Source: Eledone cirrhosa
Lineage: Eukaryota
Assembly (NCBI GenBank): GCA_964016885.1
Contig: OZ024741.1
Span: 376,526,001-376,590,000, forward strand
Length of the DNA: 64,000 bases
Reading direction: 5' to 3'
In this document: positions 1,160-59,700 of the stretch, in pieces
Position numbering within the stretch: position 1 is the stretch's first letter
How the letters are laid out: every line of letters starts with the position of its first letter
Notes under the pieces: generated by a model
What the model was told of the DNA's origin: nothing
The model's input: the letters and a program-made list of their open reading frames with translations, nothing else
The model's database searches: none
Program-made: the position numbers and the translations under genes

Positions 1160-1230
1160 TGACGTACATGGGAGTCGAACCCACATCTGTGGTTATCGCG
1201 ACCACTGTTCTACCATTACACCAACACATG
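1160..1230 (-). ncRNA. tRNA-like cloverleaf copy
   Basis: Reverse complement of 1540-1610. Confidence 0.7.
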
Positions 1231-1418
1231 ACCCATCTCTTTCCATTCAAATTAGAAACTACATTCTTAGCGAGTTTAAATGGCAAGTAAGTATGTTTTG
1301 AAACAGTGAGCGAGTTTGAAATTATAAAATATATAGCTTTCACCGTATTTTTAACTAAAGGAATCTTAGCTTGATAACGGGGTTTAGAACCTTCAGATAA
1401 ATGGGAAAAGATGAGTAT

Positions 1419-1489
1419 TGACGTACATGGGAATCGAACCCACATCTGTGGTTATCGCGACCACTGTGCCACCATTACACCAACATATC
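1419..1489 (-). ncRNA. tRNA-like cloverleaf copy
   Basis: Reverse complement of 1540-1610 with a few substitutions (D-stem gtg/cac pairing). Confidence 0.7.
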
Positions 1490-1539
1490 ACACATCTCGC
1501 TAAGAATGTAGTTTCTAATTTGAATGGAAAGAGATGGGT

Positions 1540-1610
1540 GATGTGTTGGTGTAATGGTAGAACAGTGGTCGCGATAACCACAGATGTGGGTTCGACTCCC
1601 ATGTACGTCA
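1540..1610 (+). ncRNA. tRNA-like cloverleaf (non-canonical; Pol III A/B boxes), probably not a functional tRNA
   Basis: Acceptor gatgtgt/gtacgtc, A box tggtgtaatgg, anticodon arm gtggt-cgcgata-accac, T arm gtggg-ttcgact-cccat; G33 and U37 are non-canonical. Confidence 0.75.
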
Positions 1611-24995: not shown

Positions 24996-27965
24996 AATTC
25001 CATATATGGTAAAAGTGATTGTCACAAGGATTGGTCAAAGGTTTGTTGTTGAGACACATAATTCTATCATGGCAATTTGTGGAAGGAATGTGTAGCTGAA
25101 CCTGCCAGTAGAAGAAAGAGGGAGAGGGGGTGGAGGAAACCCAGTCGTGCGTTGATAGTGCCTACTACAGCAGGGCAGGAGGTCAAGGACGCAAACTAGG
25201 GAGGGGGAGGGGGAGGAAGTCGAAACAATAAGTAAAACAATATGGGGTAAATATATAGAAAAATACCGAGAATGTTAAAAAAACAATTAAATATAAAAAA
25301 AATAAAACAATTTCTGGTTACAATTCCCTAAGGACAGCCATCAAGTCTCTCACTGGTACTGCTAGACTATAGAAAGGTTTACTAGGTTGGACGGAATTAT
25401 AATGAAACCCTTTTAAGAGGTAGTAGTAATCAACCGAGAATATCTTACGGTGACGAGTCAACAAGTGGGGGGCCAAAATACTAAAGAAACTACCACGAAA
25501 TAACAATTCAAAGTCCCGAGACTAATACGAAATAAGTGTTTCTACCCTAGGCACAAGGCCAGCAACCACCCAGTGCAAACAATAAACTAATACGAAATAA
25601 TAATTCAGAATCCCGAAAAAGAATACTAATACTATCTCTACGGGTGCCGCTACGATACAAAAATTCTAGTGCAAACTACATAAATGCTCGTACGAAGTGT
25701 ATGAAAAATTTGATACGGAAAATTTATTCAGAATCCCCCCCCCCCCACCCCCCACCCCCAAAATACTGATATACGAGAAATTAAAGCAAACATACCACTA
25801 AGAAATGTAGAAAACACGGAAAAGGGGCAGCCATCGGATAATAAAGCAAGTATCCGGGGTCTATCACATCTCCTATAAAAAGCAGAGTCAGCCAATTCTA
25901 TCAAAGAATAGGTGAAGGGGGTGGGGGTACTGAGGCTACAAAGGACCGAGGGGCTGCCTGGGTGGGCGAGAAAGTGAAAAGCACGACGACAAAGAAAGAG
26001 GACTGGGGTGGAAGGACTAGGAAGGGATGGGGGAAGAAGGAAATATAGAGGAAGCGATAAAAAGATATAAAAGAAGATCTTACGTCTACCTTTGTAAGCA
26101 TGGGTTACCCATTACAAAGTCGGCAAGTGGGGTGTTACAGCTCTTGTCTACCCCCCCCCCGGGTCATCATGGGCTTTGAGAGCGAAGTAAGTCCTACGCA
26201 ATCTGGGTTTGCATGCAGTTACCAGTTCATCTCTCTTGTTTAGGAGTTGGTCCGACGAAAACAGCATTTGTAAAGTTTCCTCCGAGCATAAATTGCACGG
26301 ACGGCGTCCTCCCGTTTAAGAGTTGGCTCTGGACAGTAAGCTTCAAGGGAGATCATAGGTAATATTGTTATCCTTGAGGTCCCAGATGTGGCCCGAAAGT
26401 GTGGTGGCGTGACGCCGGGCCGGGTTTCGGAAGGTATGTCTGTCTTGGTATAGCCGGGTCTTGAAGTCACATGCGGTTAATCCTATATAAGCTTTGTTGG
26501 AGTTGTCCGTCCTCACGTTGGACTGGTCGATCACATTACGATCTCTGCATCTGTTGTCGAGGGGGAAAATGGATCAATCAGGACAGTTGCACCTCCTGGT
26601 CGGCTCTCCACTGCTATTTAGGTTATTTCTTCCATAGGGGTTGAGTTTTTTGTTGTTAGAGGAGACGATGTTTTGTGCAATGTTTGGTGTGGTGCTGTAG
26701 GAGAGTTTGATGGTATTTTTGTTAATTATGTTGTGGTAGCGGTGTTGTAGTGGGAAGTGTTTTTCAATGAGCCTAAAGAAGATTTTCCCGATAGGAGTTG
26801 TCACCTCTGCGTTGTGGGGAGGATTGAACCCTGTTACATTGCGTGAGCGGCGGTGTCGCCTGGTGGTTCCTCTATGGAAGCTGGACAGTATGATATTTCC
26901 TCCCGGAAACCGCTCCGCTTGAGGGCCTGGTTATAATAAGGCGCATGTTCGTCGAATATATGCTCATTAGCGGACAAACGAGATATGCGGACGGAGATGT
27001 TTTTAACCAGGTTATTGGTGATGTACCTAGGATGGCTTGACCGGCGGTCGATATAGTGCAGGTTGTCGTTGGGTTTCCTGTATGGTAGTACAGATCATTA
27101 TCGAGGTCAAGTGTAACGTCCAGGAAGGTGACTCGGGTCAGGGACGTTTGTAGGGTTATTTTAAATCCCCAGTCCCGGAACAAGCTGATTAATTGTTTAC
27201 GGACCCGGTCTGTACTACTGGGGTTGTACCCTTTAAGGGTAAGGAGCCCATCATGACGGTACAATCCACCGCCGAATGCAGGAAACATGTCGGTGCGTTT
27301 AGCTAGTAGGAATAATCCTATAAGATCTGTGACCTCAGCCGAATCCGTCGCGCCCATGCTGACGTCAAAGGGTGAGTCGGGAGCTCTCTTTATCCATTTG
27401 GAGTTGTCGAAGAGTAGGACTGTCTTCCTGGCTTGGAGGATGATGTTTCTTTCTTGGTCGGTGATGGGCGCAACTGTTTCGGCAAAGTCCAAGGCAGCCG
27501 TAAGTAGCGGTAAAGTAATTAAGCATAGTAACTCTCTATGTCAAACTGGATGAATTTGGTGTCTCGTTTGTCCTCCATATTGCTGAACCATGAGATTAAT
27601 TGCTGGGTGTTGAACCATAGGCTAAGTCTGGCGTGTTGCTTAACTTTTGATATAACGCGGTCTAGGATTGTTTTGCTGATTCTCCCTATGTTGGACTTCG
27701 TTTATAAGCCTGATAGAAGGGTTACGGTCGAAATCGGATTTGTGGTCCTTCAGTGTGAAGTAGGGTGTCTGTGGGTCTAGGGGTTCCGTGCGGTCGGCGA
27801 CCCCGAGGCTGGAGGTAATTTGTTGTCCATCTCGATTTATGTCCTTGATGCATGAGTGGTTAGCCTTTTTATAGGTGGAGTTTAGGCGGCTCCTGATCAG
27901 TGTGTGGTATCTGTCGGGGTTGTAGAAGTAGAGGTTACCAGTTTCATCCGAGTGCACCATGATAT

Positions 27966-28406
27966 TGTAGTGACCTACATTCCGCGGGCTCACATACATT
28001 CTCTGTGCGTGATTTGGCTCAGCTCAGCCAATCAGCGCCAGGGGAAGAGAATGTATCCCTACGCGTTCTGAGGAAGAAATAGCCCGGGACGATTTGAGAA
28101 ATCTCAGACTCGCAGCTTGACCATGCTAAAGTAAACACCACTTGTTCTTTTGCTACGTAAGCACAAACAATATGTAACGACAAAACATTACATACGGATC
28201 TGGCCAAACGCCTCAGCCAGTCGACCGTATTTTCTCTTGTAATCTTAGTTGATTTGTTTTATTTCTCTTGGCATGCCAGCTCAACGTTTGTTAATATATA
28301 ATGTAAAAACAATCTAAAGTCGTTGTCGATATTCCTATCATATCTTTCTACGAACCTGGTTCCTCGTAGAAACCTTACAACTCTCTAAACAATACTCTCT
28401 GCTAAA
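27966..28406. mobile_element. 441-bp insertion, probable solo LTR, with ATAT target-site duplication
   Basis: Starts tgtag, ends ctaaa (one change from ctaca); ATAT at 27962-27965 and 28407-28410; removal restores the PLE frame NTNDIMVHSDET. Confidence 0.7.
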
Positions 28407-29283
28407 ATATCATTGGTGTTATCATACTCTTTTAAGTTGCTACGGAGTTTTTGTAGGAATCGGTTGTCTCTGGGTTTGAATTTAATGTTCTTGACCAGTT
28501 GGAAAAGGTCATTCTCGAAGGGTGAGAGCATAGGGTTCGGAGGGGGACATTTGTAGGTATTAAATCCGAATCTCTCCTTGGTACCGAAGTCCTGATTGTC
28601 GCAATATCTGTCGTAGAAAAAAGTTCTCCATCTAAGTCTTTTCGCAAATACGTCGATTTTTTGCGTGAGCATCCGAAGGTAAAGTTTTTTCGGTGGAACT
28701 GGGATGTTCTTGGTAGAGAAGTCGATGTTGTGTTTTCGCATGGTGTGAGTGAAAGAACTTGAGCTTAGCGGAAAAGTCTGGATACGGCGTGGTAGTGTCG
28801 GAAAGTGCTCTACTACAGGAATAGGAGCTAGATAACTAAGGAAATGTGGTAAGGTACCAGGTGGACCATAACGCACCAAAGTACTCAATACTTAGGGTAG
28901 TAGAGTGGGTAATAGGAACGAGTGGGACCCCGACGGCTGAGCTGAAGCCGTTTCGACGGCTAATTCTGGACTAAATGAAATTTTTTATCCTGGTATTTAA
29001 TTGTTTCTTAACATTCTCGGTATTTTTCTATATATTTACCCCATATTGTTTTACTTATTGTTTCGACTTCCTCCCCCTTCCCCTCCCTAGTTTACTTGAC
29101 CTCCTGCTCTGCTGTAGTTGGCACTATCAACGCACGACAGGGATTCGTCCCCCCTCTCCCTCTCCCTCTACTGGCAGGTTCAGCTACCCATTCCTTCCAC
29201 AAATTGCCATGATAGAATTATGTGTCTCAACAACAAACTTTTGACCAATTCTTGTGACAATCACTTTTACCATATATGGAATT

Positions 29284-29516: not shown

Positions 29517-30302
29517 CAACTAGAAATTGATTGACATATAAATATATCTAAAATAAACATATGAACCAATCACAGGGGATACTTTCTAAAAGTGTGTAAG
29601 CACACATAGCTATGTAGGTAACTAAATAAAGTTTAACTGGAACTTCAAAAATAGATACCTTATAAATTGATTAATCTTCCTTGTATATATTCCATTAAAG
29701 AAATATATTTCACCAATTAATCGATTGGTAAACGACAGTAGCCAGATCCTGGATTTTCAACAACGAAGATGACTAACCGTCTGTGTTTACGCATCAAATC
29801 AAATCAGCGACTGGCCAGTAACACGTGTTGTATTTACTAAATACACAGACATCGTACCAGCTTCGTCCCAGTGGCGTGAATAGGGTTATCGACAACTAGA
29901 AATAGCAGTCAAGTCCTTTCAACTGAGTTAGCTCTAGAATTAAGGGGCCGTATTTATATGTATCCAACATTAAGTTAAATTAAGGGTGTCATGTCAGATA
30001 TACATGTGCCATATCACCCGTAAAATATGCTCAGAGATTCCAATGAATAGATCCGAGCATTTTATATCAACTAGAAATTGATTGACATATAAATATATCT
30101 AAAATAAACATATGAAACAAGGGATAATAATTCGGGGTGTTTATAATAAATGTTCGGTAAATCCATACGTACATATATATATGTGTGCATGTATGTATAT
30201 ACATACACCTGTACGTCTGTATACATATATTTATGTACGTAAACATATTTATATTCAAATATCAGCCTTACTAAGAGTGGGAAATGAATATTCATTTATT
30301 CC

Positions 30303-30334
<32 letters not shown>

Positions 30335-30487
30335 ATAAATGCTCTGAAATAGCGATATATATGTGAATATAGACATAGAATATTCGAAAATATTCTGTAT
30401 GTTTATAATAAACATTTTGAAGACCTAATCGCTATAGAATAGAATACGTCACGTATTACAATTAGATTCTCGATAAAAGCAAGGGAA

Positions 30488-30530
30488 GTAATCTACGCGT
30501 TTCATTCTTGTTAGAAATCATCAGGACTAC
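30488..30530 (-). ncRNA. Type I hammerhead (also 30798-30840, 31108-31150, 31418-31460, 31728-31770 on minus)
   Basis: Reverse complement of 31864-31906. Confidence 0.9.
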
Positions 30531-31863
30531 ATATCCAGTGCTTTTATCGAGAATGACACAGCTAGAGACTTATAGAATACTTAGCTGTGTACAGGAACTG
30601 GTTTGAAAGAGCGGTTGCCGGTCCGGCAGAAATTAGAAATTGGAATAAATGCTCTGAAATAGCGATATATATGTGAATATAGACATAGAATATTGGAAAA
30701 TATTCTGTATGTTTATAATAAACATTTTGAAGACCTAATCGCTATAGAATAGAATACGTCACGTATTACAATTAGATTCTCGATAAAAGCAAGGGAAGTA
30801 ATCTACGCGTTTCATTCTTGTTAGAAATCATCAGGACTACATATCCAGTGCTTTTATCGAGAATGACACAGCTAGAGACTTATAGAATACTTAGCTGTGT
30901 ACAGGAACTGGTTTGAAAGAGCGGTTGCCGGTCCGGCAGAAATTAGAAATTGGAATAAATGCTCTGAAATAGCGATATATATGTGAATATAGACATAGAA
31001 TATTCGAAAATATTCTGTATGTTTATAATAAACATTTTGAAGACCTAATCGCTATAGAATAGAATACGTCACGTATTACAATTAGATTCTCGATAAAAGC
31101 AAGGGAAGTAATCTACGCGTTTCATTCTTGTTAGAAATCATCAGGACTACATATCCAGTGCTTTTATCGAGAATGACACAGCTAGAGACTTATAGAATAC
31201 TTAGCTGTGTACAGGAACTGGTTTGAAAGAGCGGTTGCCGGTCCGGCAGAAATTAGAAATTGGAATAAATGCTCTGAAATAGCGATATATATGTGAATAT
31301 AGACATAGAATATTCGAAAATATTCTGTATGTTTATAATAAACATTTTGAAGACCTAATCGCTATAGAATAGAATACGTCACGTATTACAATTAGATTCT
31401 CGATAAAAGCAAGGGAAGTAATCTACGCGTTTCATTCTTGTTAGAAATCATCAGGACTATATATCCAGTGCTTTTATCGAGAATGACACAGCTAGAGACT
31501 TATAGAATACTTAGCTGTGTACAGGAACTGGTTTGAAAGAGCGGTTGCCGGTCCGGCAGAAATTAGAAATTGGAATAAATGCTCTGAAATAGCGATATAT
31601 ATGTGAATATAGACATAGAATATTCGAAAATATTCTGTATGTTTATAATAAACATTTTGAAGACCTAATCGCTATAGAATAGAATACGTCACGTATTACA
31701 ATTAGATTCTCGATAAAAGCAAGGGAAGTAATCTACGCGTTTCATTCTTGTTAGAAATCATCAGGACTACATATCCAGTGCTTTTATCGAGAATGACACA
31801 GCTAGAGACCTAAGTATTCTATAAGTCTCTAGCTGTGTCATTCTCGATAAAAGCACTGGATAT

Positions 31864-31906
31864 GTAGTCCTGATGATTTCTAACAAGAATGAAACGCGTA
31901 GATTAC
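31864..31906 (+). ncRNA. Type I hammerhead (also 32174-32216, 32484-32526, 32794-32836, 33104-33146)
   Basis: gtagtc-CTGATGA-t-ttct-aaca-agaa-t-GAAA-cgcg-ta-gattac; palindromic stem III acgcgt, GUA site; outer helix ttctcgataaaagca/tgcttttatcgagaa. Confidence 0.9.
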
Positions 31907-33268
31907 TTCCCTTGCTTTTATCGAGAATCTAATTGTAATACGTGACGTATTCTATTCTATAGCGATTAGGTCTTCAAAATGTTTATTATAAACATACAGA
32001 ATATTTTCGAATATTCTATGTCTATATTCACATATATATCGCTATTTCAGAGCATTTATTCCAATTTCTAATTTCTGCCGGACCGGCAACCGCTCTTTCA
32101 AACCAGTTCCTGTACACAGCTAAGTATTCTATAAGTCTCTAGCTGTGTCATTCTCGATAAAAGCACTGGATATGTAGTCCTGATGATTTCTAACAAGAAT
32201 GAAACGCGTAGATTACTTCCCTTGCTTTTATCGAGAATCTAATTGTAATACGTGACGTGTTCTATTCTATAGCGATTAGGTCTTCAAAATGTTTATTATA
32301 AACATACAGAATATTTTCGAATATTCTATGTCTATATTCACATATATATCGCTATTTCAGAGCATTTATTCCAATTTCTAATTTCTGCCGGACCGGCAAC
32401 CGCTCTTTCAAACCAGTTCCTGTACACAGCTAAGTATTCTATAAGTCTCTAGCTGTGTCATTCTCGATAAAAACACTGAATATGTAGTCCTGATGATTTC
32501 TAACAATAATGAAACGCGTAGATTACTTCCCTTGCTTTTATCGAGAATCTAATTGTAATACGTGACGTATTCTATTCTATAGCGATTAGGTCTTCAAAAT
32601 GTTTATTATAAACATACAGAATATTTTCGAATATTCTATGTCTATATTCACATATATATCGCTATTTCAGAGCATTTATTCCAATTTCTAATTTCTGCCG
32701 GACCGGCAACCGCTCTTTCAAACCAGTTCCTGTACACAGCTAAGTATTCTATAAGTCTCTAGCTGTGTCATTCTCGATAAAAGCACTGGATATGTAGTCC
32801 TGATGATTTCTAACAAGAATGAAACGCGTAGATTACTTCCCTTGCTTTTATCGAGAATCTAATTGTAATACGTGACGTATTCTATTCTATAGCGATTAGG
32901 TCTTCAAAATGTTTATTATAAACATACAGAATATTTTCGAATATTCTATGTCTATATTCACATATATATCGCTATTTCAGAGCATTTATTCCAATTTCTA
33001 ATTTCTGCCGGACCGGCAACCGCTCTTTCAAACCAGTTCCTGTACACAGCTAAGTATTCTATAAGTCTCTAGCTGTGTCATTCTCGATAAAAGCACTGGA
33101 TATGTAGTCCTGATGATTTCTAACAAGAATGAAACGCGTAGATTACTTCCCTTGCTTTTATCGAGAATCTAATTATAATACGTGACGTATTCTATTCTAT
33201 AGCGATTAGGTCTTCAAAATGTTTATTATAAACATACAGAATATTTTCGAATATTCTATGTCTATATT

Positions 33269-33331
<63 letters not shown>

Positions 33332-33570: not shown

Positions 33571-33665
33571 CATACTAGGATCGGAATTAAGCGCATTCCG
33601 CAATTCACAGTAATAATAATAATATTAGCTCAAAGAAGAATAGAGAATTTTCTTCTGAGCTCAGA

Positions 33666-34140
33666 TACAAATATATTACACAAATAGATGTGTGTTACAC
33701 AGTGAAATGTGTGTAAAGAATTATTACAAGTGATTTCTACCGATACTGTATAGAAAACAATATCTACAGGTTTAGCAATTAAATAGAAAAAAAACCTAAG
33801 TCAGAGTCAAATGTCTGAAGCGGGTATATTAGCTTTCTCTCTATCTATGAGGCTAGATGTGTAGTAAACAGAATCCACATTTGCTGAATGATGAACCTGT
33901 GGCTGTTAAACTGCACATTTCTGTGGTGAAACGACTTAATTTGTAGCAGAAAACATATAGTTATAAGGTTAGTAATTTAAAATCTACTTCAGAGATTTGA
34001 TGCTGACTAAATTTTTTTTCTGTTTAATTTATAAACCTGGAGATATTGTTTTTTATACAGTAACGGTAAAAATCACTTGTAATAATTCTTTACACACATT
34101 TCACTGTGTAACACACTTCTATTTGTGTAATATATTTGTA
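33666..34140. repeat. Inverted repeat, ~155-bp arms
   Basis: tacaaatatattacacaaataga...gtgtgtaaagaattattacaagtgattt at 33666 mirrored at ~33985-34140. Confidence 0.8.
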
Positions 34141-34172
34141 TATATATACATAATATATATATATATATATAT

Positions 34173-34223
<51 letters not shown>

Positions 34224-34554
34224 GGAAAAAATGAAATTTCATTTCACAATTTTAGTACGGCTGATATTTGAATATAAGTATGTTTACGTACAGACATATA
34301 TATATACAGATGTTTACCGAACATTTATTATAATGCTCGGTTTGTTTGTAAACAAGCAGCCCGAATTATTAACCGTACAGTGTTCGGCAACCATTGTTGC
34401 AAACAAACCGAGCATTATAATAAATGTTCAGTAAACCCATACGTACATATACATATATATATGTGTGCATGTATATATATACATACTACTGTACATCTGT
34501 ATACATATATGTATGTACGTATACATACTTATATTTATATGTATATATATACAT

Positions 34555-35365
34555 ATACGTTATTCCGGGTTGAATCGGAGGTAACCACAGTAAGTAAGGT
34601 ACTCAATACATTGCAGAGTATAACAGTTTTAATATAGATGAGATTCTACAGGACTAGAACTATTTCATTCTTTAGAAATCATCAGAAATCTGGGTTACAA
34701 AAAATAAGTATGGTATTTATATATATACATATACGTTATTCCGGGTTGAATCGGAGGTAACCACAGTAAGTAAGGTACTCAATACATTGCAGAGTATATA
34801 AGTTTTAATATAGATGAGATTCTACAGGACTAGAACTGTTTCATTCTTTAGAAACCATCAGAAATCTGGGTTACAAAAAATAAGTATGGTATTTATAGGT
34901 CTCTTCAAATGGTAGGAGAGGATAGGGAGTGGAATGGGTGTAGGTCATTGGTTGATAGAAAAGGGAATTCTTTAAAAGCTAATTCTACAAAGTTATAGTT
35001 TATTTTTATTTTTATTTTTAGAGTAACAAAGGCAGAAAGAATTCTATAAACAAGTTCAGGATGGGGTGCCACTCCTTATTATTAAGTTTCTCTTAAGCTA
35101 ACAGGTGTCTATAAGATCAGTGGGGGTCAGTCATGGTTGATGGATTTACACGAAAGGGAGATTCTTTAAAAGCTAAATTCTTTAAGGTTCTACTAAGTGA
35201 CAAAGGTTTAGAGAATTCTGTAGACAAATTCTAAATATTGAGTGCATATCATACAATTATCTTCAAATTTCTCTTAAACTATTCAACTATATGCCAAAAA
35301 TCAACAGACACATTCACAAAAACACTCACTCACACACTCGCGCGCACCCATAAACACACACACAT

Positions 35366-35782: not shown

Positions 35783-38700
35783 AAAGTTATATTTAAAATC
35801 TGACTCTTTTATAAGGAGAATCAGGTGGCGAGCATTCCACTTTGATAAATCTAATATAAATGAAAATGCCTCGGACTTAAACAAAGTTTTTAAATCTAAA
35901 AGAAATCCACCCCCTAACAAACTTTTATCTGACTTTGAAAACGATATAATTTCTATCATACAAGGGGTCAAATTCAAGAGAAACTTCAAAGGCCAGGAAT
36001 ATCTGAAAGGCATTAAAGGATAATATTGAGAGCTTAGAGAAAACTGAGAAGATCTTGGTGAAATCTGACAAGACCAACAACCTCTATGGAGTGCAGAAAG
36101 ACATGTATAATGGCCTCATACTGAAGGAACTGAGGAAAAAGTACAAGGTAGCAGATAGGGCCGAGCTTGAGAAAATGAATGTTGAAGCATCTTGTATAAT
36201 GCACGAGTTGGAAATTGAGAACAGAACACAACCTTTCGTGCCCAGGAAACCGAAGATCAATATGAAAGATCACAAAAGGAATTTTGAAAATGACTTGCCA
36301 GTTAGATTGATCGCACCATCAAAATCGGACCTGGGCAAATTAAGCAAAAACATTCTTGACAGGGTGATACAGCAAATTAAAAACTTGGATTGTATACCTA
36401 ACCTGAGCTTGTGGAAGGGAACTGGAGAGGTTGTTGAGTGGTTTAAGCAAATTAAATATAACAATAATAATAAGTTTATTCAACTTGATATTGCTAACTA
36501 TTATTCTTCTATTACCCCTAATCTACTAAATAAGGCACTAAATTACGCATTCAAACATACAGACCTAACTAGTAATGAAATGCACATTATATTATCGGCT
36601 AGGAAAACATTGATAGAATTTAATGACCAACTATGGACCAGAGCAGATAGAGATAGCAATTTTGACATTACTATGGGATCATCCGACTCAGCTCAGGTAA
36701 CTGACCTTGTGGGCTTATTTTTAATCAATTCGCTACATAGGAAAATACCTGGTACTACCGGAGGTTTATAAAGAGATGACATGCTTTTACTTATTGATAA
36801 TAATAACTCTGAACTAAATAGAAAAAGAAAACAAATTACACAATTTTTTTAATTACTTTAATCTAAAAATAGAAATTGAGAACAACCATAGAATAGTCAA
36901 TTTCCTAGATATAACATTAAATCTCAACACATGTCTTCACTATCCATTTCAAAAGTTGAATGAAAACTTAAACTATGTCAGCTTTAACTCTAACCACCCC
37001 AGATCTGTCAAAAACACTATAGTAAACTCTGTTCAAAAACGTATCTCTAGAATCTCGTCTAATAGAAAGATTTTCGACGAAAAAGCCCAGTACTACAATG
37101 AAGCGTTAGCTAGAGCAGGATATAGTGATAAGATTATGTACATAGATAATGATAGACAAACTAAACAAAATAACAACTATTTTAATTACGGCCACAACCT
37201 TAACAACTATAATAGAAACCATTACAATAATTCCAAAAGCCAAAAAAGAAATAGAACTAGGAACATAATATGGTTTGCCCCCCCCTTTCTCACTAAACAT
37301 TAAAACCCACATCGCTAAACTATTTTTTAAAGCTCTTGATAATCGCTTCCCTAGAACACATAGGTATCACTCAATTTTCAATAGACATACTATAAAATTA
37401 ACCTACTCATCCACCAAAAAATTAGCACAAAATATTAATAGAATAAATAATAGGAACTTAAAACCTAGCGATAATAGCATAAATAATATACAAGTTAACA
37501 AATGTAACTGTAGAGATAGATCTAAATGTCCGTTAAATAACAACTGCTTAGTTAAAAATATAATATACAACTGTAATGTTAAAACGGACTCTAATTCTTT
37601 TAACTACGTCGGTTCCACATCGACGGAATTTAAACTTCGCTATAATAACCACAAGAATTTTTTCACAGATCCAAGCAAAAAATCTTCAACAGCACTATCA
37701 GGCGTACTCTGGCAACTTAGGCAAGATAACGTTAGATATTCGACGGCTTGGAATATAGTCTCAAGAGGGATTCCTTTTAATTCATCCTCTGAGACATGTG
37801 ACCTCTGCGCGGAGGAGATATTCTTTATACTAAAATCTAAAGATTCCCTTAATCTACGGACAAATTTATTCAGTTGCTGCAAACATAGATTGAACTCAAC
37901 TTTTAAATATAAATTTAAATTTAAAATGTAGTATATTTAGTTTGATTTGTAATTATTTGGGAAACTAGCCGATAAATCTTTCGATTTCTTCTTTTTATTC
38001 TTCTTTTTATTTTAATTTTTATTTTAAACATTCTTCATGAAAAATTAAACTACCCTAAAAGTTGATGCTCCAAATATATCGAATAAACGTTACACTAGAT
38101 AAACTTCTATATTAAATATAAGAACATATGTAGACCAAATGGGCATCCTAAACTTTTGAAATGATTTCTGCTAGACGCGATTTGGTAAATAATTTTTAGC
38201 TTTATCTGTTTTCGACTCTGATGATTATAATGAACTTGGCAATATATTGTCAATTAATTTTGAAGGGTTGATCTTTGTGGTCGATTTGCGTGGCATATTA
38301 TGTTTTTATTTTTATTATTTTAATATTTTTTTATATTTTTTAATATTTTTAATTTTTAATATTTTTAATATTTTTAATATTTTTATTTTTAATATGTAAT
38401 ATTTTTTAGTTTTCTATTTTACTTATTTATTTGTTTATTATTATTATTATTATTATTATTTGTTGTTTTTGTTTCTGATATTTTTATTAATATATTGAAA
38501 TCTGTTCTCTATTTCTGCTTGATAGATAATCATGTAGAGTAAAGACAAGAATAGTATTGTTAAAATTAATATAGACTCTATATATATGTGTATATATACA
38601 CATATATGTATACTTAAATTTTTATAGCACAATGAGAATGTTCTCCGTGTGAAATAGGGGTTTGCAGAGTTGATCACGTAAATTCACATCGATGTTTGTA

Positions 38701-41329: not shown

Positions 41330-42986
<1,657 letters not shown>

Positions 42987-44675: not shown

Positions 44676-45087
44676 GTATATGTGTATGTGTGTGTGTTTA
44701 TGGGTGGGCGCGAGTGTGTGAGTGATTGTTTTTGTGAATGTGTCTGTTGATTTTTGTCTGTTGATTTTTGTCTGATCTTATAGACACCTGTTAGCTTAAG
44801 AGAAACTTAATAATAAGGAGTGGCACCCCATCCTGAACTTGTTTATAGAATTCTTTCTGCCTTTGTTACTCTAAAAATAAAAATAAACTATAGTTTTCTA
44901 GAATTAGCTTTTAATGAATTCCCTTTTCTATCAACCAATGACCTACACCCATCCCACTCCCTACCCTCTCCTACCACTTGAAGAGACCTATAAATACCAT
45001 ACTTATTTTTTGATACCCAGATTCCTGATGATTTCTAAAGAATAAAACAGTTTTAGTCCTGTAGAATATCATCTATATTAAAACTAT
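44405..45087 (+). repeat. Inverted copy of ~34800-35570
   Basis: Reverse complement including tgatcttatagacacctgttagc...ggagtggcaccccatcc and the microsatellite pattern. Confidence 0.88.
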
Positions 45088-45129
45088 ATATACATATATA
45101 TCTGAATGGAAAGAGTGGTGTGAATGGGT

Positions 45130-56775: not shown

Positions 56776-59700
56776 AAAATTCAAGTCACTCGACCGACAG
56801 ATGGACACAGAAATCTCAAGGCACCCTGAAGGCCTACTCTATGAAAAAATATTAAAACTTTAGAAAGAAAACTGTGAGGATGAAGAACTAACATCCCTCC
56901 AGCGATGGGAAAAATCGCTACCTGGTTCAACAACTACGAAATGGATTTCAAAAATGAACAACATACAGGTAACCCATTTTTAAAACAAACTAAAACTCAC
57001 ACACCACATGCACAACAAATAATAAAAAAGTAACTAAACATGCACAACAAATAACAAAAAAGTAACAAAACGTCCAACATACCCCCACCAAAACTATAAC
57101 GATAATTGCAGAAGCCATAGACAAAACTATAACCCTACTAACAAAAATCGAAGATCCCCCAACACAAGACAGGACCCAATCCGCAGATCACAACCCACAC
57201 AAAACCTATTCCAAAACCGTAGACCCCTGCACACACAGAGCCTGTTCCAAAATCGTAGATCCCAACCCACACAAAGGAACACAATCTACAACCCGGACTA
57301 TCAACAAACCGAACCTCAATACGTCCGAAACTTCTATACCAGACCGCACAACAACAGGGGAAATGCCATTAGATATAATAATACCATTGAAAAAACATTC
57401 CAGAAAAATCATTTTTTAGACCAAGGCTACAGGACCCGCGACACACGGTGGCACAAACCGATTTTGAAAAACCGAAAATAATCAACCTTTCAAATACAAA
57501 CCTCTCAGCCCAACATGTAAAAATTCTCTCCAAAGGATTGAAATTCACACCAACACCACAATACACTAACCTCAATGAGATAAATGACGATATCTCACAC
57601 TTCTGTAGAAAATTACGTCTCACAGAGGAATTCTTTGACAAGGAGAATAACGACGAATCAATTGTACGGAATAAAAGCAGCTACAACCCAACAAAAGGTA
57701 GAAACAGAGTTCTGGACAAATTTTGTGACCACATAGCCACTTTCCCATACCATGAACTAATGCAACCTAAACCCAAACCCAACACGAGTCGAAGGGAATG
57801 GGAGTTTATCCATGAACTAAAAAAACAATACGGACATTATAATTAAGGAAGCAGACAAGGGAAGTACTGTTGTCATTATGGATGCTGAAAAATATAAAAA
57901 ATTCTATGTTCTCTCTCTTACAAAATACTAATTACTATGAAAGAGTTAAAAACTACCAGCAATCAAAAACAATGACCAGATTAAACACACTGATTTGTCG
58001 AATCCAGGAAGACTTAACTAAAAAGGAACGCGATTATTTAACACATTTTGAATACAAAACCAGCAACCTTTACGGACTTCCGAAGATCCACGAGTGTAAA
58101 ATAATTAACGATGCCTGTAAACAATCCACCTCAGCCTGCGTGAACGCACAATACCTCACAGACCTTAAATTGAGACCAATTGTAGCGGGCCCACAATGTG
58201 AAACACACAGACTGAGCAACTTTATAGACATACTACTAAAACCAATTCTCAAATACATACCAAGCCTTGTAAGAGACGATCTGGACCTCTTAAACTACCT
58301 CCTCAAACATGTCAACAACGACACTATTATTGTGTCTTTCGATGTAGTGAATCTCTACACAACGATCCCATACCAATACGGACTAGAAGCAATCAAATTC
58401 TTGCTAGAGAAATATCCCAATGAGATACCTGGCAGAATAGAAAAAAGCTTCATCACCGAGGGATTAAAATTTATCTTACAGAACAACTTTTTTGATTTCG
58501 ATGGTAGTACTTACAAGCAAATATCGGGGACTGCGATGGGTACAAAAGTCGCTCCAACTTATGCCAACTTAGTCATGGCATACTTATAAGTCCAGATATG
58601 TGAACAGCCCAAATCAAAATACGGATTGAACTTCCACAAATATTTATCAGAGAATTGGAAACGCTACTTGGATGATTGTCTCATTCTTTGGTCCCACATA
58701 CTCGACCAACTGAATGATTTCAAAAACTTAATAAACAGCATCAATAACCACATCCAATTCACAATGGAATACAGCCATGATCAACACCCATTTCTGGACA
58801 TCTTAATATTAAAAAAAGACACACATATTGAAACTGACATACACTACAAACCAACAGATTCCAAACAATACCTGCTATTCACCTCCAACCATCCAAAGCA
58901 CATGAAGACGAACATTCCTTTTAACCTAGCAAGAAGAATTTGCACAATTGTCTCCAATTATGAAACGCGAACTAAAAGACTTCAAGAATTAAAGGAAATT
59001 CTACTCGAAAGACAGTACCCACCATTACTAATAAATGATGGAATAGAAAGGGCTAAAGAAATAGGCATTGAGGAATTACGAACACAGAAACAAATTCAAG
59101 GTACGTACAATATTCTATCATATATCTCAACACACAACCCAAGAGATGCGGAAGCTTACAACACTATTCACAAGAACATCCCACTACTGAAGGAAGACGC
59201 AAGAATGAAAAAAGCCCTTGAAACACACAAAATAATCAAAAACAAAAGACAACCGAAATCACTGAAAACATTACTCACCAATGCCAAATTACCTACCACA
59301 AACACACACCCAACTGTCAAAAATGTGGTCGCTCTATTGTGGAACCTGCACTCACCTCATTGAAGTCAACACGTATACATTTAAATCAGGACAAAATTTT
59401 GCTGTAAAAAATCACTTCGCTTCCTCATCAAAAAATCTGTTTATGCCATTAAATGTAAAGGACGCAATGAAGATTATATAGAACAAACTAAACTCACAAT
59501 CAGAAACAGAATGACAATTCATCGCCAACAATTACGAGATCCAACCACGAGACAGATACCTCTAAGCGCACATTTAGACATATGCGCAAGTAATAAGACA
59601 CCCAAATTCCAAGTCTTCCCATTTTACCGTTGTGCTGACAATACAAAAGAACAAATACGAATAAATAAGGAAAATATGTTTATTCAAAAATATAGACCAG

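What the first reader, a model, noticed from the sequence alone, without database searches (positions are those of the whole stretch)
30331..33279. Palindromic array of ten 310-nt hammerhead units: a young retrozyme / viroid-like circRNA element
Seen: five ORF-less 310-bp units in one orientation, then five inverted, differing by only a handful of SNPs. Each has a complete type I HHR (CUGAUGA...GAAA-cgcg-UA), a perfect 15-bp outer helix, and further hairpins (tgccgg-t-ccggca, agaatatt-cgaa-aatattct, aatacgt-c-acgtatt, acacagcta...tagctgtgt). Established: tandem non-coding HHR units of this size are the architecture of non-LTR retrozymes, thought to be mobilised by Penelope-like RTs. Inference: transcripts self-cleave to 310-nt monomers that circularise, and the array was written by rolling-circle reverse transcription followed by one fold-back. 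HHR sense points away from the centre in both arms, so read-through from either side would give cleavable RNA and also long dsRNA.
Basis: partly seen in the sequence, partly recalled or inferred. Interest (0 to 1): 0.9.

Follow-up and report, generated by a model that had tools for sequence, protein, structure and literature searches.

The report
Two-armed hammerhead retrozyme, Penelope-inserted
This is one copy of a young non-coding repeat with a predicted self-cutting RNA motif that sits at over a thousand places in this animal genome as two back-to-back multi-copy arms, and the fixed, unequal ends of those arms suggest that a Penelope-type jumping-gene enzyme likely copied a small RNA circle from both sides of a DNA break, a route that is proposed in print and can now be tested directly.

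Summary
Observation confirmed with small corrections: 4.8 + 4.7 units of 310 nt, ten hammerhead cores, sense pointing outward, inside (TA)n. The inversion is the family rule, not a one-off fold-back. G000 holds 4,535 exact cores and 987 and 1,170 junctions of two fixed end types. All 54 of 54 coordinate pairs and all 75 simple two-arm loci among 86 analysed have one long and one short end, 26-40 nt apart. This matches the Penelope (PLE) 'tail'. Centres are scattered and rich in microhomology. Each locus carries one monomer haplotype in both arms (98 of 98 testable variants). Inherited substitutions spare the core and helices (0 of 27, against 40 of 102 private ones). Best reading: a non-LTR retrozyme written in by a PLE enzyme that primes both target strands and likely runs round an RNA circle. 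Cleavage, circle and expression are untested, and the helper PLE was not found. The scan noted this family before at other loci. New variant of a known kind.

The parts
30303..30330 (.). Left (TA)n target tract
   Evidence: TRF, 14 copies; both ends abut TA in 72 of 75 two-arm loci
30329..31809 (-). Left arm, 4.8 units, HHR sense on minus; outer end at the family 'long' site (monomer position 163-165, counted from the cut)
   Evidence: long-end junction found 987 times exactly
30329..30364 (-). 'Tail': monomer positions 130-165, present at the outer end of the long-end arm only; likely the stretch between two RT start sites
   Evidence: compare PMC8557442 and PMC11167929; the start-site reading is inference
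31809..31810 (.). Centre junction, blunt, no microhomology; arms begin at positions 235 and 220, inside a hairpin of the monomer
31810..33279 (+). Right arm, 4.7 units, HHR sense on plus; outer end at the 'short' site (131-139, inside the AU tract)
   Evidence: short-end junction found 1,170 times exactly
31840..31928 (+). Type I hammerhead of the first plus unit: 16-bp outer helix, 6-bp stem I, core 31870-31900, 4-bp stem II over U.U, palindromic helix III; predicted cut after 31900
   Evidence: cleavage itself untested
31901..32210 (+). One cut-to-cut 310-nt monomer, the predicted circular RNA
   Evidence: 733 of 735 junction crossings in 86 loci are unchanged and none has an indel
33272..33314 (.). 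Right (TA)n target tract; a target duplication cannot be read at this locus because both flanks are pure TA

Best explanation
This is one insertion of a young non-autonomous non-LTR retrozyme whose two opposed arms were likely written by a Penelope-like (PLE) RT-endonuclease priming both strands of a nicked (TA)n target and likely running several times round a 310-nt RNA circle. Steps: (1) arrays are transcribed and the hammerheads cut out monomers, probably working as dimers because helix III is a self-complementary palindrome [inferred]. (2) Monomers are closed into circles [inferred from the family and from exact junctions]. (3) The PLE enzyme nicks both strands of AT-rich DNA [shown for another PLE in vitro, PMC11167929; the TA target is shown here]. 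(4) One 3'-OH starts at position 165-172 with 0-2 nt of homology; the other starts at about 126-139, in or beside the AU tract that can pair with the TA overhang; every two-armed insertion uses one of each [ends shown; priming inferred]. (5) Each cDNA runs 0.2 to 27 units and stops independently [lengths shown]. (6) The two cDNAs join through short inverted microhomology and are filled in, giving a head-to-head palindrome [junctions shown; repair route inferred].
For: Ends: 54 of 54 minus-plus pairs under 20 kb in the first 222.5 Mb of C1 are long+short, never long+long or short+short (p about 2e-17). Hard test: of 20 short-end loci with no exact long partner, 13 were two-armed with the other end at 166-172, 1 had a 12-nt second arm ending at 165, 6 were single-armed and none was short+short. 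75 of 86 loci are simple two-arm, all long+short. C131 of the last short-arm unit is replaced by target TA in 43 of 75 and kept in 25, so the short start ranges over the AU tract. This matches the PLE pattern of an inverted 5'-truncated copy, a 30-40 bp tail at one end and (TA)n targets (PMC8557442, PMC3846280). The anole PLE nicks and extends both strands from two internal starts that bound the tail (PMC11167929). Target duplications with non-TA letters: 15 bp at L034, 34 bp at L032. Centre overlaps of 2 nt or more in 34 of 59 insertion-free junctions against 18% by chance (p 2e-11). Monomer bottleneck: 32 haplotypes in 86 loci; 98 of 98 testable locus-fixed variants are in both arms; 733 of 735 cut-site crossings unchanged, no indel. 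Selection on the RNA: 0 of 27 locus-fixed substitutions hit the core or break a pair, against 40 of 102 single-unit ones (p 1.2e-5). An older sister family keeps the same helices with different letters and a U3-A8 core in place of C3-G8 (12 of 14 units read by the script). Two PLE families with long open frames, HHRs and the same two-end pattern are in G000.
Against: No RNA evidence: cleavage, circle and expression are untested. In Li et al. only 1 of 9 predicted retrozyme dimers cleaved in vitro, and in the anole PLE HHR mutants did not affect insertion and unprocessed RNA was the main template (PMC11167929). The helper was not found: the two PLE families examined share no sequence with the unit beyond HHR motifs, and their tails are about 89 and 65 nt, not 26-40. 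Two loci (L174, L180) carry a variant in the same round of both arms but not in other rounds, which a single monomeric circle cannot give; L058 switches haplotype inside one arm. Eight loci are single-armed. As a set, target duplications do not beat shuffled flanks (22 of 75 against 82 of 300) because TA runs blur them. Samples come from C1 only and were chosen by exact end or core matches, which favours young, regular copies. Single-unit variants may include assembly errors.
Confidence: 0.7

Rival explanations
1. Same PLE two-ended priming, but the template is an uncut linear (or circular) multimer transcribed from a homogeneous master array; the hammerhead and the monomer circle are not needed for insertion.
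For: L174 and L180 show round-matched variants in both arms. In the anole PLE unprocessed RNA was the dominant substrate (PMC11167929). The HHR here is weak.
Against: 98 both-arm fixed variants against 2 round-matched mosaic ones. New variants reach all units of a locus in 32 haplotypes, which needs repeated single-unit bottlenecks. Inherited changes avoid the catalytic core and helices. A linear monomer re-entered by template jumps would be expected to leave scars, and none is seen in 735 crossings.
Confidence: 0.17
2. One reading: one rolling-circle cDNA folds back and is copied, so the second arm is a copy of the first; the second fixed end would come from endonuclease resolution.
For: This locus has near-equal arms (1,481 and 1,470) and a junction inside a hairpin. 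5 of 75 loci are near-mirror against 1.7 expected (p 0.025, post hoc). Self-priming (PMC3846280) and EN resolution of the tail (PMC8557442) have been proposed for PLEs.
Against: Either end type can be on the longer arm (33 against 33). Centre phases are not symmetric beyond chance (12 of 75). The seven SNPs here are not mirrored. The outer ends are two different fixed sites.
Confidence: 0.07
3. Short two-armed PLE-type insertions were expanded afterwards at the DNA level (slippage, unequal exchange), so the many units say nothing about rolling-circle copying.
For: Li et al. propose local satellite-like amplification. L035/L036 has two variants repeating at a 7-unit spacing, a sign of later duplication.
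Against: 63 of 75 loci have more than one unit in both arms while single-unit variants are rare (118 in 229 kb). Expansion would have had to act on both arms of almost every young locus before mutations arose.
Confidence: 0.04
4. Library or assembly chimera (fold-back reads), or a foldback/MITE DNA transposon.
For: No read or contig spanning this locus was obtained. One fetched locus (L165) was an assembly duplicate of L056 beside a gap.
Against: 75 loci with different centres but the same two asymmetric ends, locus-specific haplotypes and target duplications of varying length. Neither chimeras nor terminal-inverted-repeat elements would give that.
Confidence: 0.02

Closest known systems
Metazoan non-LTR retrozymes (coral, mussel, axolotl; Cervera and de la Pena 2020, PMC7229834; passages and parts 2-4 of 6 read)
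   Same: Tandem non-coding units of 150-450 bp, type I HHR, low GC, long target duplications, self-paired monomer. The HHR joins the one-pair helix III with palindromic tetraloop of HHR_Amex1 to the U.U base of helix II of HHR_Amex2; both cleave better as dimers.
   Different: That paper has no occurrence of 'inverted', 'opposite' or 'microsatellite' in its main text. It proposes RT on circles by PLEs or LINEs but does not show it. Here the arrays are head-to-head with two fixed ends. RNA is shown there and not here.
Li, Clavereau and Pollet 2026, bioRxiv 10.64898/2026.07.22.740005 (parts 1-3 of 5 read; supplements closed)
   Same: Argues that animal retrozymes are non-autonomous PLE derivatives.
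   Different: Its evidence is co-occurrence and pLTR similarity in vertebrates. In the parts read I saw no insertion-end or inverted-arm analysis. Here the link is the insertion footprint, and no pLTR match was found.
EN+ Penelope-like elements (PMC8557442, PMC3846280, PMC4209133: passages; PMC11167929: parts 1-2 of 4)
   Same: Inverted 5'-truncated copy, 30-40 bp tail at one end, (TA)n preference, HHR upstream of the RT start sites, both strands nicked and extended in vitro, U3-A8 core variant, HHR pairs on opposite strands noted in Schistosoma.
   Different: No ORF here, and both arms are multimers of one short unit. The strict one-long-one-short pairing differs from the in vitro result, where RT start sites did not differ between strands.
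L1 twin priming (recalled, not checked in a paper; one search listed two papers, neither read)
   Same: Both target strands prime cDNA, giving an inversion with both 3' ends facing outward and a microhomology junction.
   Different: In L1 it is a minority event with a variable internal second site on a linear RNA. Here it is the rule, with two fixed sites and multi-round arms.

Membership tests
Metazoan non-LTR retrozyme | Tandem units of 150-450 bp, each with a type I HHR | tested here: met
   310-nt units, ten cores; HHR read by hand and below Rfam gathering
Metazoan non-LTR retrozyme | Non-coding, GC under 50% | tested here: met
   longest stop-free stretch 59 codons; GC 34%
Metazoan non-LTR retrozyme | No LTR, primer binding site or polypurine tract | not tested
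   arms run straight into (TA)n; no search for PBS or PPT was made
Metazoan non-LTR retrozyme | Target duplication longer than 4 bp where present | tested here: inconclusive
   clear at L034 (15 bp) and L032 (34 bp); set-wide test not above control; unreadable in the window
Metazoan non-LTR retrozyme | Strongly self-paired monomer under selection | tested here: met
   z -4.38; 0 of 27 against 40 of 102 disruptive changes; covarying helices in sister family
Metazoan non-LTR retrozyme | Self-cleavage in vitro | not testable with these tools
   predicted dimer helix III duplex -9.5 kcal/mol
Metazoan non-LTR retrozyme | Expressed as linear and circular monomer RNA | not testable with these tools
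   needs RNA from this species
PLE-mobilised element (works like) | Inverted 5'-truncated second copy and a tail at one end only | tested here: met
   54 of 54 pairs, 75 of 86 loci
PLE-mobilised element (works like) | AT-rich or (TA)n target | tested here: met
   72 of 75; sampling patterns required TA at one or both ends; core-selected loci L031-L040 mostly agree
PLE-mobilised element (works like) | Unit similar to the pLTR of an autonomous PLE | tested here: inconclusive
   no match to the two families examined; three pattern searches found only sister retrozymes; other PLE families not sampled
Autonomous PLE | RT plus GIY-YIG ORF | tested here: not met
Hammerhead viroid or satellite RNA | Ribozyme in both polarities | tested here: not met
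   motif scans found cores on the sense polarity only
Hammerhead viroid or satellite RNA | RNA-to-RNA replication | not testable with these tools
   none
Foldback or MITE DNA transposon | Matching termini at both ends, fixed internal structure, fixed target duplication | tested here: not met
   ends differ by the tail; centres and lengths vary

The most novel reading that the evidence does not exclude
A PLE enzyme dimer loads on one ribozyme-made RNA circle and primes the two strands of a break asymmetrically, always one at each of two start sites, then runs two rolling-circle reverse transcriptions at once. Each genomic palindrome is then a clonal record of one RNA molecule, and the family evolves as a population of circles selected for ribozyme fold. 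That would be genomic evidence for rolling-circle retrotransposition of a circRNA, and would explain the PLE inverted repeat and tail as obligatory twin priming.
Probability: 0.5. Interest if true: 0.78.

Novelty: new variant of a known kind. Interest (0 to 1): 0.58.

Why it matters
Two questions are stated as open in the papers read: which enzyme moves animal retrozymes and whether it copies circles (PMC7229834; Li et al. 2026), and how PLEs make their tandem/inverted structures and tail (PMC8557442). This family gives over a thousand near-identical insertions that carry the PLE footprint on a 310-nt template with two mapped start sites. That is a minimal substrate for a direct in vitro test, and possibly a compact cargo handle for PLE-based DNA writing. 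It also adds many kilobase palindromes, potential dsRNA sources, to the genome. The element class itself is known, the RNA steps are unshown, and the scan has met this family before.

Tried and rejected
DNA search of G000 with the monomer returned nothing, not even the window itself, because the tool skips very common words; patterns were used instead. Rfam: no hammerhead at gathering. Sequencing runs: no RNA holder listed. 20 runs of 16 studies hold 69-91% of the words. Three of the four runs laid each gave one 340-nt contig (310 + 30, a closed loop) at depth 10-34, two of them with scraps of other repeats; the Hi-C run gave nothing in about 1% read. A tandem array and a circle both give such a loop, and trace DNA explains it, so it is no evidence for a circle or for horizontal transfer; no piece spanned the centre. 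A second laying gave no result, so long-range support for this single locus stays open. Helper search: two PLE families (821 and 775 aa open frames) and three motif searches gave no autonomous element with this unit's ends; Pfam gave no family for the three PLE-like frames tested, so the labels 'PLE' and 'Neptune-like' rest on recalled motifs plus the HHR and end pattern. A 272-nt insert at the centre of L037 matched nothing held. A-to-I editing: fixed A>G 9 against T>C 4, private 11 against 17, p 0.10: not supported overall, although A276G (UAG in stem I) and A20G recur on 6 and 4 haplotype backgrounds. Total unit number by scaling was unstable (16,000-140,000 by sample) and is not used; at least 1,170 insertions at about 6-9 units each points to the order of 10^4 (inference). 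Set-wide target-duplication test uninformative. In one search one fixed variant (U287A) was scored as pair-breaking through a leftover predicted pair; it is position 10.1 and closes the U.U mismatch; the pair table was corrected. L165 was dropped as a duplicate; one 15-kb pair on C1 was not fetched.

Full report
Observation. The window holds two period-310 arrays back to back, 30329-31809 and 31810-33279, between (TA)n tracts. I number the monomer from the predicted cut (31901 = position 1). The left arm reads sense on minus from position 235 to 163-165; the right arm reads sense on plus from 220 to 131-139. Ten hammerhead cores give eight full monomers. Seven SNPs are present, none mirrored. 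There is no ORF over 59 codons, GC is 34%, and the fold is far more stable than shuffles (z -4.38). The ribozyme is a weak type I form: 6-bp stem I extended by a 16-bp helix, 4-bp stem II over a U.U pair, and helix III reduced to one pair under a palindromic CGCG loop. It scores below Rfam thresholds. Such ribozymes in axolotl cleave much better as dimers (PMC7229834, part 3), and the palindrome can form a -9.5 kcal/mol duplex with a second copy.

The family. A 38-nt core matches 4,535 times in the 3.0-Gb genome, control 0. Of the first ten arrays listed there, eight run minus then plus. Exact junctions of unit to (TA)n number 987 for an end at position 165 and 1,170 for an end in the AU tract at or before 139. 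In the stretch of C1 covered by both lists (78 long and 100 short ends), all 54 outward-facing pairs under 20 kb are one long plus one short. I fetched 20 further long-end loci (19 two-armed), 20 short-end loci that lacked an exact partner (13 two-armed with ends at 166-172, one with a 12-nt second arm, six single-armed) and 36 of the remaining pairs. One duplicate was dropped. Of 86 loci, 75 are simple two-arm, 1 is two-arm with a complex centre, 1 has the 12-nt arm, 1 runs into a gap and 8 are single-armed. Every two-arm locus is long plus short. These samples are from C1 and favour young copies with exact ends.

What the ends mean. PLE insertions carry an inverted 5'-truncated copy, a 30-40 bp tail at one end, and often sit in (TA)n (PMC8557442 and PMC3846280, passages). 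The purified anole PLE nicks and extends both target strands, starting at two internal RNA sites that bound the tail (PMC11167929, parts 1-2). The retrozyme shows this footprint with a tail of 26-40 nt. The short start lies in or beside an AU tract that can pair with the target; C131 is lost from the last unit in 43 of 75 loci and kept in 25. Target duplications are readable at L034 (15 bp) and L032 (34 bp) but not as a set. Centres are scattered round the monomer, with 2 nt or more of overlap in 34 of 59 insertion-free junctions against 18% by chance; BLAST-defined edges may inflate this a little. Arm lengths are close to independent, and either end type can be on the longer arm. That fits two cDNAs primed from the two target strands and joined in the middle, and does not fit copy-back as the rule. 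This locus is one of five near-mirror cases, a slight excess, so a fold-back step here is not excluded.

Circle or multimer. The 86 loci fall into 32 haplotypes. A locus-fixed variant is in both arms in 98 of 98 testable cases, and 733 of 735 crossings of the cut site are unchanged with no indel. A mutation that arises in one unit can fill a whole new array only through a single-unit template, and scar-free repeats favour a ligated circle (inference). Against this, L174 and L180 have a variant in the same round of both arms only, and L058 changes haplotype within one arm. These point to a multimeric or second template in a minority, and the first two also suggest that both cDNAs come from one molecule. 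In the anole PLE the uncut RNA was the main substrate, so the multimer rival stays alive.

Selection on the RNA. None of 27 locus-fixed substitutions hits the core or breaks a pair; 40 of 102 single-unit ones do (p 1.2e-5). The common inherited changes lie at the free core position N7, in loop 2, at 10.1 (closing U.U to A-U), or turn A-U into G.U on the sense strand. An older sister family of about 320 nt (1,785 matches) has the same layout and ends, a differently lettered outer helix, and U3-A8 in place of C3-G8; that swap is known in PLE hammerheads (PMC4209133, passages). An A-to-G excess was tested and is not significant.

Helper. G000 has at least two PLE-like families with long open frames, their own hammerheads, TA targets and two preferred ends, at about 43 and 132 nt and about 76 and 141 nt after the cut. 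Neither shares sequence with this unit, and their tails are longer. The helper is therefore inferred from the footprint, not identified. Their clade labels rest on recalled motifs.

Comparison and novelty. It works like a PLE-driven insertion and meets the testable features of a metazoan non-LTR retrozyme; cleavage and circular RNA could not be tested. Eight literature searches gave no paper, among those I opened, that describes two-armed retrozyme arrays with PLE tails. PMC7229834 does not use the words 'inverted' or 'opposite' in its main text. PMC4209133 notes opposite-strand HHR pairs near PLE fragments. I did not see the supplements of these papers (the life-cycle figure of PMC7229834, the tables of the 2026 preprint), which may bear on this, and the library lacks most subscription journals. 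The host looks like a cephalopod by recalled repeat content and by other notes of the scan; I did not test this. Earlier notes of this scan describe the same family and the same reading at other loci; they are not independent support, and my reading was recorded before I saw them.

Verdict. A real feature and a new variant of a known kind. The two-ended PLE footprint and the clonal arms are shown; the enzyme, the cut and the circle are inferred. Interest 0.58.

Noticed in passing
window 34555-34897 (minus), also 44772-45093: A second HHR-bearing repeat: two 176-bp units with a stem II almost the same as the main family's but a longer helix III and an unrelated 3' part, continuing into further repeat sequence to about 35120. 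Retrozyme or 3' end of a PLE.
   Followed up: partly
window 30140-30300 and 34226-34535; L073:1855-2777: Ends of a third family whose full copy at L073 has opposed arms and an HHR with the same U.U base and loop 2 as the main family. The main array sits in the TA run beside one such end.
   Followed up: partly
window 33576-34141: Short inverted repeat (about 150-bp arms, 90% alike) ending in TA runs, also at L057; possibly another two-armed element.
   Followed up: no
window 35796-37901, 57391-59360, 26187-28891 (minus), 41452-42826 (minus) and others: Many broken PLE-like RT and endonuclease frames (tblastn with the 821-aa protein); the 57391-59360 copy belongs to the 775-aa family.
   Followed up: partly
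L126:4170-6632; L244:2239-4563: Two PLE-like families with long open frames; tails of about 89 and 65 nt, longer than the 30-40 nt in print; the second has a U3-A8 hammerhead core.
   Followed up: partly
window 1160-1610: Three tRNA-like matches on both strands (30.8-38 bits); a similar sequence lies in L125 between TA runs, so probably a tRNA-derived repeat.
   Followed up: no
L058:576-4594: Long-end arm reads A276 in its four outer units and G in its two inner units; the other arm is all G. Template switch, conversion, or editing during copying.
   Followed up: partly
L037:3099-3370: 272 nt of unrelated sequence captured between the two arms.
   Followed up: partly
L086:1378-1973: Sister-family array with a 163-bp period that keeps only the position 59-212 module and lacks the hammerhead region; may define the minimal signal for the enzyme.
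   Followed up: no
window 31500-32210 in public runs: 20 runs under 17 organism labels hold most of the unit's words; those laid look like trace DNA. Not resolved.
   Followed up: partly
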